From a virus (taxonomy: Duplodnaviria; Heunggongvirae; Uroviricota; Caudoviricetes), in IMG/VR virus record IMGVR_UViG_2531839440_000004, positions 1-33,438 of that record: 33,438 nucleotides of DNA. One strand, given 5' to 3'. The position numbers are program-made. Positions 15,001 through 18,000 of this stretch are shown here, piece by piece; the stretch's first letter is position 1, and the number at the start of each line of letters is the position of its first letter.

Positions 15001-18000
15001 GACAGGCTCCGGAAGACGGTTGTTGCGCACGTATTCGGTGAACGCACTATGGCGACGCTGGGGCGTCTTATGAGCCTGCTGTCACCCTTTGACGTGGTGA
15101 TATGGATGACGGATGGCTGGCCGCTGTATGAATCCCGCCTGAAGGGAAAGCTGCACGTAATCAGCAAGCGATATACGCAGCGAATTGAGCGGCATAACCT
15201 GAATCTGAGGCAGCACCTGGCACGGCTGGGACGGAAGTCGCTGTCGTTCTCAAAATCGGTGGAGCTGCATGACAAAGTCATCGGGCATTATCTGAACATA
15301 AAACACTATCAATAAGTTGGAGTCATTACCAACTCTGCCATAAAATCCACTCGATTCGAGGTTGAGAATATAGACCAACAGAAATATCACTGAGATCTGT
15401 AGGAAATGAACCCCCAGAAAGAATCACTTTTCTGTATTCATTGAGGTGCGCCAGATTGTTTATCAATCCCATTGCCAAAGTATATAGTTCGCCGGAATTA
15501 AGTTTATCCTCGGTTAACTCATCTCTTAAGTCAATAATTATATCAATATTTGATAAAGGAATTCCCAGATGATTAATGTAATGCGTTATTAATTGTGGGT
15601 TAACCAGATCTAACGTGGTTAATCTCAAGCATATTTCATTCTGCATTAATTCATCAATCGCTCTTTTATAGTTAGATGGGCGAGTTGGTGAACTGACAGG
15701 AATAACTCTTATCCCCATATCTCTAACTTGATTAACCGCATTTATTATAGGGTAATGATCTTCAGGAGAAATAAAATGCTCTTCAATTAATAATCCATCA
15801 ATATAAACACCTTGCATATCTGAGCAAGATTTTGAGACTTTCTTTCCGAACTCTATAAGAGTCTCGTTATAACTCTTTAAGGCAATACCTGAATCAGGGT
15901 CAATTGGCACTGGTTCAATTTCGAGTAATGGCAAAATTTTTGATTTCTTTTCAATGGATAGCTGCGATAAAGCTGATAACTCAGAACGTTTCGCTTTCAG
16001 AATAGGAATATATGAAATTGTCATGTTAATACCTTATACAGAATCAATTAACAATTAATGGTTCTTCGGACATTGAAATTTATATCGCAAAAATTGGCAA
16101 ACTCTCCTCGACTACTCACTTGTGGGTATCCTGGCGTAAAAGGAATGACTTGGCAATACCCGGTGTGATCATAAGTCATTGAAAATGATCATTTTTATCA
16201 GTCTTTCTTCCATGATGAATGCTAATGCCATTTGATTTGTTGAGGTGAAAACTGTTAAAAATCAAAACGATGTAATTGAAATGAACGTTCGGTAGCATTC
16301 ACGCTTTAAATGTTTCTTTTGTGCTGATTGGATGAATTTTGGTCACTTATGATGAGAGATGTTGCAGGAAAAGAAGTTGGCATTGATCTATTGGATAGTT
16401 AGAATTGCTGCGGGTGCTTGAGGCTATCTGCCTCAGGCATGAACACCAAAAGGCAGATAGAGAAAAGCCCCAGTTAACATTACGCGTCCTGCAAGACGTT
16501 TAACATTAATCTGAGGCCATATCTATGCGACACATAGAGATTAGCCTCTTACGGACCGAAAGGTCAAGGAGAAGCAGGCTATGAAGCAGCAAAAGGCGAT
16601 GCTAATCGCCCTGATCGTCATCTGTTTAACCGTCATAGTGACGGCACTGGTAACGAGGAAAGACCTCTGCGAGGTACGAATCCGAACCGGCCAGACGGAG
16701 GTCGCTGTCTTCACAGCTTACGAACCTGAGGAGTAAGAGACCAGGCGAGGGAGAAATCCCTCGCCACCTCTCATGTGTCAGGCATCCTCAACGCACCCGC
16801 ACTAAACCCGCTTCGGCGGGTTTTTTGTTGCGTGCTGAATGCGCAGGGTGAAAAATAACCATATATTTGATTATATACACAACAAAAAATAAAAGTCATT
16901 GTACCTGCACATTAAATAATCAAATATACAGCGTGAAATAAATATTTTTCAGATTAATATTTTTGTCTCTATGTGGATATAACCGTTTGTACTTATAAAC
17001 TCGGAGGCATCGTGGAAAAAATAAAGAAACTATTTAGTTGCAAATACGCAGTCATACGTCGTGATGACCTGTCAGTTATAGTCGAAATGGATTACTTCCC
17101 TGAACCCCCAAAATCAATGATGTATCGTAATGGTCGAAAGGCAATTTTTTTACCGATGAGGGTAAGTGACATTATGGGAAATGATAAACTGCTGGATGAA
17201 TTGCGAGTCAGAGCATCCTGTTAGTATTGGCATTAATTCTGGTATACTACATAACGGGCTGAACACCCATTCTACTGCGCCAGCGGAGAACTACGATGGC
17301 GCATATACAACTGGTCAAACAAACCTCTTCCGGATTACTTCTCCCGGCGACGCCGGAGAGTTGCGATTTTTTGCATCAAATCAAAATAGGTGAGTGGATA
17401 CACGCAGACTTTAAGCGTGTGCGTAACTACGCATTCCACAAGCGTTTTTTCAAACTCCTGCAACTGGGATTCGATTACTGGGCTCCGGTCGGTGGGGCGA
17501 TCACGCCTCGCGAACGAAAACTGGTATCAGGCTTCGTTGATTACCTGTGCGAATCAGTAGGTCGGGAACACACTCCAGCCCTGAGTGATGCCGCAGAGCA
17601 ATACCTTAATACAGTTGCGACATGCAGAACCCGGGATACGGCATTGCTAAAGTCGTTTGACGCTTTCCGCGAGTGGGTAACCATTCAGGCCGGATTTTAC
17701 ACCGAGCATATTTATCCTGATGGTAGTCGTGGGCGCAGGGCAAAATCTATCGCATTTGCGAACATGGACGAAACCGAGTTTCAGCAGGTTTATAAATCTG
17801 TACTGAATGTGCTGTGGAACTGGATCCTGTTCCGTAAATTTTCCTCTCCGGAGGAAGTCGAAAATGTGGCCGCGCAGTTACTGGAGTTTGCGTAATGGTG
17901 GATTTACGTAAAGCGGCGCGGGGGCAGATGTGCACCGTCAGAATTCCTGGCTACTGCAATCACAATCCCGAAACTTCTGTGCTGGCGCATTACAGGCTGG

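What the first reader, a model, noticed from the sequence alone, without database searches (positions are those of the whole stretch)
16400..16830. hok-like type I toxin in the AT-rich island next to the defence-like module
16581-16736 encodes a 51-aa peptide that I recall as matching chromosomal HokD. An ORF overlaps its start in ATGA fashion (mok-like), there are upstream hairpins (16428-16450) and a perfect 8-bp hairpin plus terminator downstream. The gene is too short to appear in the ORF track. Hok loci need an antisense Sok RNA to be a functional addiction module, and that cannot be confirmed by eye.
Basis: partly seen in the sequence, partly recalled or inferred. Interest (0 to 1): 0.5.

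Follow-up and report, generated by a model that had tools for sequence, protein, structure and literature searches.

The report
Intact prophage hok/mok/sok toxin-antitoxin cassette
This is an ordinary but complete copy of the well-known hok/sok "host-killing" toxin–antisense RNA cassette carried by a Rac-like prophage, encoding the same toxin as E. coli K-12 HokD but, unlike K-12, still carrying all of its regulatory RNA elements.

Summary
Window 16581-16736 (+) encodes a 51-aa Hok/Gef peptide identical to K-12 HokD. The full hok mRNA architecture surrounds it:
- a promoter at 16377-16405;
- a 5' tac element that pairs with a 3' fbi element;
- ucb/SD-mok sequestration;
- a 19-codon mok ORF whose TGA overlaps the hok ATG;
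- a 3' protective hairpin and a terminator.

On the minus strand there is a Sok gene of about 69 nt (about 16531 to 16463). Its -35/-10 hexamers sit at the position of the sokW promoter of phage Sp5/933W, which has been validated by mutation.

K-12 hokD keeps only the part from the hok Shine-Dalgarno onward. This copy is therefore the intact form of that locus.

The 85 nt that carry the mok/sok control region are 100% identical in all 12 E. coli genomes listed (777 records at 99% identity or more), where the gene is annotated hokD.

Two small differences from the textbook systems come from one 2-nt deletion. First, mok ends at the hok start instead of overlapping hok. Second, the predicted Sok-target loop is 5 nt long and has no YUNR motif.

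Novelty is low. Expression and toxicity were not tested.

The parts
16377..16405 (+). hok promoter-like site: -35 TTGGCA (16377-16382), 17-nt spacer, -10 TAGAAT (16400-16405). Predicted transcription start is G16412.
   Evidence: Consensus scan, 10/12 match. TAGAAT is kept in the most common promoter variants listed for the related loci, while the -35 side varies. The Rfam model begins at 16412.
16412..16829 (+). Full-length hok (mok-hok) mRNA, about 418 nt.
   Evidence: Fold energy -176 kcal/mol, z=-8.6. 92-98% identical to annotated hok loci in 933W, Rac-SA53 and E. coli 214-4.
16412..16423 (+). tac (translational activator) element, GGGUGCUUGAGG.
   Evidence: Pairs with fbi in the full-length minimum-free-energy fold. 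Pairs with ucb, or with 16430-16440 (the metastable hairpin), in truncated transcripts. Identical in all 106 related loci where a pattern search located it.
16424..16460 (+). tac stem-loop (10-bp stem).
16465..16472 (+). ucb / anti-SD box, AAGCCCCA.
   Evidence: In the full-length fold it pairs with the mok SD (16512-16517), with an A16514·C16470 mismatch. This mirrors A106·C74 of R1 (PMC9841398).
16463..16531 (-). Predicted Sok antisense RNA, about 69 nt: a 5' single-stranded tail, then a long imperfect hairpin, then CUUUUCUCU.
   Evidence: Positional homologue of the annotated 71-nt sokW (L003 1563-1633, minus strand). Fold -28.7 kcal/mol, z=-4.85.
16538..16567 (-). Sok promoter: -35 TTGACC (16567->16562), 18-nt spacer, -10 TAATCT (16543->16538).
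   Evidence: Aligns with the sokW promoter TTGCCT-17-TAACCT. The sokW -10 was inactivated by mutation in PMC8621323. The simple consensus scan did not flag it.
16513..16548 (+). Sok-target hairpin of the processed mRNA. Outer stem: mok SD GAGGC (16513-16517) with dcb GCCUC (16544-16548). Inner stem: UCUAUG/CAUAGA, which contains the mok AUG. Loop: CGACA (16528-16532).
   Evidence: It appears in the minimum-free-energy fold of the transcript truncated at 16772. All 25 sequence variants of this segment in related loci fold into the same two-tier hairpin. The loop has no YUNR motif.
16525..16584 (+). mok-like leader ORF, 19 codons (MRHIEISLLRTERSRRSRL). Its TGA overlaps the hok ATG (ATGA).
   Evidence: The same haplotype occurs in 12 of 109 sampled loci and is 100% identical in all 12 E. 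coli genomes listed for the 85-nt query (777 records at 99% identity or more).
16581..16736 (+). hok toxin gene, 51 aa, identical to K-12 HokD. Its SD, AGGAG, is at 16567-16571.
   Evidence: 92% identical to HokW.
16744..16765 (+). Perfect 9-bp hairpin with a GAAA loop. Presumed 3' protective stem-loop of the processed (truncated) hok mRNA.
   Evidence: The role is inferred from R1, where mutations in the last stem-loop of the truncated mRNA abolish function (PMC9841398).
16786..16798 (+). fbi (fold-back inhibitory) element, CCUCAA(C)GCACCC, with C16792 bulged.
   Evidence: It forms 12 base pairs with tac in the minimum-free-energy fold. Duplex energy is -21.5 kcal/mol in most of the 106 loci with a located tac element. 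Variation falls mainly on the bulged base, and one variant makes a G·U pair. There is a compensatory U-A/C-G exchange relative to K-12 hokB.
16804..16826 (+). Intrinsic terminator of hok mRNA.
   Evidence: 8-bp G+C-rich stem plus T-run. Shared with K-12 hokD.

Best explanation
The region is a complete hok/mok/sok type I toxin-antitoxin cassette of the prophage hokD/hokW lineage. It sits in the early/nin region of an IS1-riddled Rac-like prophage.

Proposed mechanism, by homology with plasmid R1 hok/sok and Sp5 hokW-sokW:
1. A constitutive promoter makes a stable hok mRNA of about 418 nt. It is translationally inert because its 5' tac element pairs with the 3' fbi element and the ucb box masks the mok Shine-Dalgarno.
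2. Slow 3' trimming back to the 16744-16765 hairpin removes fbi. tac then pairs with ucb, and the mok ribosome-binding region is presented in a hairpin.
3. Sok, an unstable antisense RNA of about 69 nt made from its own promoter inside the mok-hok interval, binds that hairpin. The duplex is then cleaved by RNase III.
4. When Sok disappears, ribosomes translate the 19-codon mok. They terminate on the UGA that overlaps the hok AUG and re-initiate on hok.
5. The 51-aa Hok inserts into the inner membrane and depolarises it.

What is shown here, in silico: the ORFs, the alternative pairings, the promoter homology and the conservation.

What is inferred: transcription, 3' processing, coupling by termination-reinitiation, toxicity, and the biological role. 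The role could be prophage stabilisation, help with lysis as for HokW, or both.
For: Toxin:
- HOK_GEF at E=1.2e-23.
- 100% identical to K-12 HokD and 92% to HokW.

Leader:
- Full-length Rfam RF01794 match at 108.3 bits. The curated hokC, hokB and hokW loci score 109.7-118.3 bits.

Folding:
- The full-length fold gives tac/fbi plus ucb/SD-mok pairing, with the same A·C mismatch as R1.
- Truncation at 16772 gives tac/ucb plus SD-mok/dcb pairing.
- Other truncations give the 5' metastable hairpin.
- These conformations are described in PMC9841398.

Sok:
- The promoter and terminator are positional homologues of sokW.
- sokW is a demonstrated antitoxin whose -10 mutation unleashes HokW (PMC8621323).

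mok:
- The SD and AUG are conserved, and the ORF is open through the hok SD.
- R1 mutagenesis shows that mok translation is needed only up to the hok initiation region.

Conservation:
- tac is invariant and fbi nearly so in the 106 related loci where tac could be located.
- The window's 85-nt control-region haplotype is 100% identical in all 12 E. coli genomes listed (777 records at 99% identity or more).
- All 12 sampled loci of this haplotype keep an intact hok ORF.
Against: - There are no expression data for this locus.
- The Sok -10 (TAATCT) matches the consensus at only 3 of 6 positions, and the simple promoter scan did not call it.
- The predicted Sok-target loop is only 5 nt (CGACA) and lacks the YUNR U-turn motif. 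That motif is reported as decisive for fast Sok binding in R1 (PMC6562991).
- mok ends at the hok start, an arrangement not tested experimentally.
- The open (translatable) fold was the minimum-free-energy structure for only one of four truncation end points tried.
- Chromosomal hok loci tested earlier did not mediate post-segregational killing (preprint 10.1101/2025.08.07.668861).
Confidence: 0.85

Rival explanations
1. The RNA architecture is intact but hok is translationally silent. The 2-nt deletion that created this haplotype put mok in a frame that stops at the hok AUG and shrank the target loop. Hok would then rarely or never be made, and the cassette would persist only by hitch-hiking in prophages.
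For: The mok-to-hok distance is 56 nt here. It is 57 nt (in frame) in 90 of 109 sampled loci and 58 nt (R1-like) in 6 of 109. The target loop is 5 nt without YUNR. The host prophage is decaying, with four IS1 copies and split Q-like and Beta_protein genes. Earlier tests of chromosomal hok loci found no post-segregational killing.
Against: R1 mutagenesis shows that stop codons in mok downstream of the hok start do not impair Hok synthesis, and that only translation up to the hok initiation region is needed (PMC9841398). An AUGA overlap is a classical coupling arrangement (general knowledge). The haplotype is common: 777 E. coli records at 99% identity or more over the 85 nt, and 100% in all 12 records listed. 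It occurs in at least two different upstream contexts. hok is intact in 12 of 12 sampled copies.
Confidence: 0.15
2. A decayed hok remnant like K-12 hokD/relF: a toxin ORF without its own promoter, mok or sok.
For: The peptide is identical to K-12 HokD, and annotation pipelines name such genes hokD.
Against: The alignment shows K-12 homology starting only at window 16567, the hok SD. The window has the whole 155-nt leader shared with 933W and Rac-SA53, and the Rfam model is matched end to end. K-12 hokD is described as lacking canonical components through rearrangement (PMC12214031).
Confidence: 0.03
3. The cassette is functional, but its role is not addiction. As with hokW-sokW of Sp5, loss of Sok on prophage induction would let Hok permeabilise the membrane early and help phage release. 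Alternatively it could act in abortive infection.
For: [quoted passage not shown]
Against: This prophage is unlikely to be inducible: IS1 splits the Q-like antiterminator gene. The cassette sits in a different genomic position from hokW, upstream of Q rather than near the right end of the phage. hok is not enriched near defence systems.
Confidence: 0.35

Closest known systems
hokW-mokW-sokW of Stx2 phages 933W / Sakai Sp5 (experimentally validated type I TA)
   Same: 92% DNA identity over the cassette. Hok is 47/51 identical. The tac, ucb, fbi and Sok terminator hairpin are the same, and the Sok promoter is at the same position. The Rfam scores are equivalent.
   Different: mokW is an in-frame 70-aa N-terminal extension of HokW (57 nt between starts). 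Here mok has 19 codons and stops on the hok ATG (56 nt). The target loop is CUGAACA with YUNR in 933W and CGACA without it here. The Sok -35/spacer is TTGCCT/17 there and TTGACC/18 here. The 3' end after fbi and the genomic position differ.
hokD (relF) of E. coli K-12 Qin prophage
   Same: The 51-aa peptide is identical. The hok SD, 3' hairpin, fbi and terminator are the same.
   Different: K-12 has no hok promoter, tac, ucb, mok or sok. Homology starts at the hok SD, immediately after relE. The K-12 copy is regarded as lacking canonical TA components (PMC12214031).
hok/mok/sok of plasmid R1 (the paradigm)
   Same: The order and spacing of elements are the same. The alternative pairings (tac/fbi, ucb/SD-mok with an A·C mismatch, tac/ucb, SD-mok/dcb) are the same. 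mok has 19 codons before the hok start.
   Different: R1 mok is 70 aa, out of frame and overlaps hok: the AUGs at 116 and 174 are 58 nt apart. R1 Hok shares only about 44% identity with this lineage, a figure given for HokW. The R1 target loop carries a functional YUNR motif. R1 is on a plasmid, with a proven role in post-segregational killing.
hokB/mokB/sokB and hokC/mokC/sokC of E. coli K-12
   Same: Same family and same Rfam model. hokB has a tac/fbi pair with a bulge at the equivalent place and one compensatory exchange relative to the window.
   Different: mokC is in frame with hokC (57 nt) and mokB is out of frame (58 nt). The peptides differ. These are chromosomal, non-prophage sites. 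hokC is cut by IS186 20 nt after its stop.

Membership tests
[quoted passage not shown] | Small (about 50 aa) hydrophobic Hok/Gef toxin ORF | tested here: met
   HOK_GEF at 82.9 bits, E=1.2e-23, covering the whole 42-position profile. Identical to HokD.
[quoted passage not shown] | Structured hok mRNA leader of about 150-170 nt upstream of hok | tested here: met
   RF01794 matched over positions 1-157 of 157 at 108.3 bits (gathering score 59), on the hok strand. The same model hits the hok strand of the curated hokC, hokB and hokW loci at 110-118 bits.
[quoted passage not shown] | Long-range 5' tac / 3' fbi pairing that locks the full-length mRNA | tested here: met
   12 base pairs, 16412-16423 with 16786-16798, in the minimum-free-energy fold. 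Conserved in the 106 related loci with a located tac element. One compensatory U-A/C-G exchange relative to hokB.
[quoted passage not shown] | mok SD masked by ucb in the full-length mRNA; tac/ucb and SD-mok/dcb stems after 3' truncation; a 5' metastable hairpin | tested here: met
   All three conformations were obtained by folding full-length and truncated transcripts. The open form was the minimum-free-energy structure for only one of four end points. Definitions are from PMC9841398. These are predictions only.
[quoted passage not shown] | mok leader ORF with its own SD, translated through the hok initiation region | tested here: met
   GAGG at 16513-16516, then ATG 16525 to TGA 16584, read through the hok SD. 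The overlap with hok is only 4 nt (ATGA) rather than about 50 codons. R1 data say the overlap is dispensable. The coupling itself was not tested.
[quoted passage not shown] | cis-antisense Sok gene with its own promoter in the mok-hok interval and a terminator hairpin, complementary to the mok initiation region | tested here: met
   TTGACC-18-TAATCT aligns with the mutationally defined sokW promoter. Hairpin plus U-run, z=-4.85. Transcription cannot be tested here.
[quoted passage not shown] | YUNR U-turn motif in the Sok-target loop of hok mRNA | tested here: not met
   The predicted loop CGACA has no YUNR. The motif is also absent from the predicted loop of 40 of the other 100 sampled loci, so it does not seem obligatory in this lineage. 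Its importance in R1 is from PMC6562991.
[quoted passage not shown] | Hok toxicity, short Sok half-life, RNase III cleavage of the duplex, 3' exonucleolytic processing | not testable with these tools
   These need expression, Northern blots and rnc/hfq mutant assays, as done for hokW-sokW.
K-12-type hokD/relF locus | hokD ORF lying directly downstream of relBE, without leader, mok or sok | tested here: not met
   The peptide is identical, but the window keeps the complete leader and has no relBE upstream.
hokW-sokW subtype (933W/Sp5) | In-frame 70-aa MokW extension of HokW | tested here: not met
   A net 1-nt length difference puts mok in the +1 frame.

The most novel reading that the evidence does not exclude
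The stretch that forms the Sok 5' tail and the hok target loop (16518-16537) is by far the most variable part of an otherwise 90-99% conserved cassette. It comes in at least seven loop 'alleles' that all preserve the hairpin.

These alleles could be orthogonal specificity classes. They would let several prophage hok/sok copies coexist in one cell without their Sok RNAs cross-protecting.

The window's allele would then be a distinct regulatory class. It has a 5-nt loop without a U-turn motif, and a minimal mok that hands ribosomes to hok by termination-reinitiation at AUGA.
Probability: 0.3. Interest if true: 0.4.

Novelty: already known. Interest (0 to 1): 0.2.

Why it matters
It matters mainly for annotation. 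A gene labelled 'hokD' by similarity to K-12 is here a complete, probably regulated toxin-antitoxin cassette, including an unannotated antisense RNA gene and a 19-codon leader ORF.

For people who work on type I systems there are three modest leads:
- The mok reading frame occurs naturally in all three registers within one closely related lineage. This agrees with the R1 result that only translation up to the hok start matters.
- This haplotype is a natural 'minimal mok'.
- The Sok-recognition loop is the diversity hot spot of the cassette.

None of this changes the understanding of the family.

Tried and rejected
1. K-12-like truncated hokD. Rejected by the alignment.

2. Taking the Rfam 'sok' hit as direct detection of the antisense gene. 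Rejected. The hit is on the hok strand, and the same is true at the curated hokC/sokC, hokB/sokB and hokW/sokW loci. The model therefore describes the hok leader, and the Sok promoter had to be assessed separately.

3. The simple promoter/terminator scan found neither the Sok promoter nor its terminator. Both had to be established by homology and folding.

4. A single consensus structure for counting pairs in the target hairpin was abandoned. In the window haplotype the 3' arm is shifted by 2 nt relative to the other alleles. Per-sequence folds were used instead.

5. Identifying the source genome from an IS1/Beta_protein junction pattern, and finding the haplotype among GTDB species representatives. 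Both scans returned nothing.

6. The 83-aa ORF at 16973-17224 is not K-12 Rem and has no Pfam hit.

7. NCBIfam HokA and Hok-subfamily models matched below their cutoffs, so they gave no subtype assignment.

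Full report
**What is at the coordinates**

The + strand ORF 16581-16736 encodes MKQQKAMLIALIVICLTVIVTALVTRKDLCEVRIRTGQTEVAVFTAYEPEE. It matches Pfam HOK_GEF over the whole profile (E=1.2e-23, 82.9 bits, cutoff 22). It is 51/51 identical to K-12 HokD and 47/51 identical to HokW of phage 933W.

Rfam family RF01794 ('sok') matches 16412-16583 from end to end at 108.3 bits (gathering score 59).

A sigma-70-like promoter, TTGGCA-17-TAGAAT, ends at 16405 and places the start at G16412. An intrinsic terminator lies at 16804-16826.

The cassette has 52% G+C and sits between flanks of 34-35%.

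The hairpin is 9 bp rather than 8 bp. The 'upstream hairpin' is the core of a 10-bp stem-loop at 16424-16460.

**Orientation caveat for the Rfam hit**

The Rfam hit is on the hok strand. The same is true at three loci where sok is annotated on the opposite strand:
- K-12 hokC/sokC;
- K-12 hokB/sokB;
- 933W hokW/sokW.

The model therefore recognises the hok mRNA leader, which contains the sok gene in antisense. It does not prove that a Sok promoter exists. I assessed that separately.

**The Sok gene**

Phage 933W annotates a 71-nt sokW on the opposite strand, overlapping the first 9 nt of mokW. In Sp5, sokW neutralises HokW, and mutating its -10 releases toxicity (PMC8621323). From the mutagenic primers I infer that this -10 is TAACCT.

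In the alignment the window has TAATCT at that place (16543->16538, minus strand). It is preceded by TTGACC (16567->16562) with an 18-nt spacer. 933W has TTGCCT with a 17-nt spacer.

Transcription from about 16531 would give an RNA of about 69 nt: a free 5' tail, a long imperfect hairpin and CUUUUCUCU. It folds at -28.7 kcal/mol (z=-4.85), much like sokW at -33.3 kcal/mol (z=-5.0).

**hok mRNA switches**

Folding the full transcript pairs tac (16412-16423) with fbi (16786-16798, C16792 bulged). It also pairs ucb (16467-16472) with the mok SD (16512-16517), including an A16514·C16470 mismatch. That mismatch corresponds to A106·C74 of R1 (PMC9841398).

Truncating at 16772, just after the perfect 9-bp hairpin, switches the minimum-free-energy fold to tac/ucb plus SD-mok/dcb (16513-16517 with 16544-16548). 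Three other end points instead gave the 5' metastable hairpin, with tac pairing to 16430-16440. All conformations described for R1 are therefore available, but these are predictions.

In the 106 related loci where a pattern search located tac, tac is invariant and fbi nearly so. Variation falls mainly on the bulged base. Relative to K-12 hokB there is one compensatory U-A to C-G exchange, and the bulge lies at the same place.

**mok**

ATG 16525 opens a 19-codon ORF, preceded by GAGG at 16513-16516. Its TGA overlaps the hok ATG.

In a sample of 109 loci (IMG/VR matches plus reference loci), the distance from the mok ATG to the hok ATG was:

| Distance | Arrangement | Loci |
|---|---|---|
| 57 nt | mok in frame with hok, mostly a 70-aa product | 91 |
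| 58 nt | out of frame, overlapping hok | 6 |
| 56 nt | the window's type | 12 |

All 12 loci of the 56-nt type carry essentially one haplotype.

The known systems cover the first two registers. mokW and K-12 mokC use 57 nt. K-12 mokB and R1 use 58 nt; in R1 the AUGs are at 116 and 174.

The window haplotype looks like a 58-nt allele with the CTAG loop that lost two bases after ATGC. R1 mutagenesis showed that mok must be translated only up to the hok initiation region. A mok that ends on AUGA should therefore still deliver ribosomes to hok. That is an inference.

The 85 nt spanning this region are 100% identical in all 12 E. coli genomes listed for that query, where the gene is annotated hokD. 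In total, 777 records match at 99% identity or more.

**Relation to K-12 hokD**

Homology with K-12 begins only at window 16567, the hok SD. Upstream, K-12 has relE. The literature describes K-12 hokD as lacking canonical components because of rearrangement (PMC12214031). The window therefore holds the intact form of the locus.

**Differences worth recording**

The same 2-nt deletion reduces the predicted Sok-target loop to CGACA, which has no YUNR motif. The motif was reported as decisive for fast Sok binding in R1 (PMC6562991). It is, however, also missing from the predicted loop of 40 of the other 100 sampled loci.

Across 98 unique related sequences, diversity peaks sharply at 16518-16537, the mok SD-AUG spacer and the first mok codons. 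Smoothed entropy there is about 0.95, against a mean of 0.21. This stretch is the Sok 5' tail and its target loop.

All 25 variants of this segment still fold into the same two-tier hairpin. This pattern fits either relaxed sequence constraint on a structural element or diversification of recognition specificity. I cannot separate the two.

One bias applies. The loci were collected by an exact 26-nt match at 16566-16591, so that segment is invariant by construction.

**Context**

The window is a Rac-like lambdoid prophage:
- RalA and DicF RNAs are present.
- The closest phage records include Rac-SA53.
- Gene order matches E. coli 214-4 and Rac-SA53: Beta_protein gene, hok, DUF1367, YbcO, then a DUF1133/Q-like gene.

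It carries four IS1 copies. Two of them have inverted the segment 13117-14562 and split the Beta_protein gene next to hok. A third splits the Q-like gene. The hok cassette itself is untouched.

**Verdict**

This is a known system and a complete copy. Function remains inferred. The decisive experiments are listed separately.

Noticed in passing
window 12349-13116 (-), 14563-15330 (+); inverted segment 13117-14562: Two inverted IS1 copies carry swapped, reverse-complementary 9-bp flanks: GGAGGAAAA|IS1|GGCAGAGTT and TTTTCCTCC|IS1|AACTCTGCC. This is the signature of an inversion by recombination between them. It splits the Pfam Beta_protein gene into an N-terminal part at 15326-16024 (-) and a C-terminal part at 13128-13529 (+). 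It also flips the partner gene at 13495-14067, whose homologue in E. coli 214-4 is annotated 'sce7726 family'. The 'defence-like module' beside hok is therefore inactivated.
   Followed up: yes
window 18349-19116 (+) and 7783-8550 (-): A third IS1 has a direct 9-bp target duplication (AAAGCTGAC) and splits the DUF1133/Q-like antiterminator gene, whose C-terminal part is at 19103-19501. A fourth IS1 has no matching flanks, which suggests a further rearrangement or deletion. Four IS1 copies in 33 kb is a Shigella-like load. The source organism was not identified.
   Followed up: partly
window 1557-1735 (+): Full-length RalA antitoxin sRNA (Rfam RF02694, 223.8 bits), with an ORF on the opposite strand at 1553-1813. 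This is a second type I toxin-antitoxin system (RalR/RalA) in the same prophage.
   Followed up: no
window 7275-7326 (-) and 19857-20007 (+): A DicF sRNA (54.6 bits) and two adjacent tRNA genes lie in the late-regulatory region of the prophage.
   Followed up: no
window 16716-16725 (Tyr47 codon TAC at 16719-16721): The hok codon for Tyr47 lies in GCUUACGAACC, which contains the UACG motif of TadA. A-to-I editing that recodes this Tyr to Cys is reported for hokC, hokD and hokE transcripts (hokD about 6%). The resulting Cys is thought to matter for disulfide-dependent toxicity (PMC12214031).
   Followed up: partly
window 16412-16583; L125 902-1054; L126 1567-1718; L003 1513-1687: Rfam RF01794, named 'sok antitoxin', matches the hok-sense strand at every curated locus tested. 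It actually models the hok mRNA leader, so strand calls from this family mis-orient the antitoxin gene.
   Followed up: yes
related loci L003-L124; window 16518-16537: Within this prophage hok lineage the mok frame occurs in all three registers (56, 57 and 58 nt to the hok ATG). The commonest form makes Mok an in-frame N-terminally extended Hok. The Sok 5' tail/target loop is the diversity hot spot of the cassette.
   Followed up: partly
L001 (E. coli 214-4), within hok: The closest complete-genome match has a 9-nt tandem duplication (CTAATCGCC) inside hok. It adds three residues (LIA) to the transmembrane segment, giving a 54-aa Hok.
   Followed up: no
phage record PP818812.1 (hit H26): A record named 'Actinobacillus phage vB_Apl-pPE4' carries this E. 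coli-type hok cassette at 95.8% identity. This is an unexpected host label for an enterobacterial prophage module.
   Followed up: no
window 16870-16899 (-): A promoter-like site (ATGACT-18-TATAAT, 10/12 match) points toward the 3' end of hok from the AT-rich spacer. It was not examined and may be chance, given 1.5 such sites expected in shuffles.
   Followed up: no
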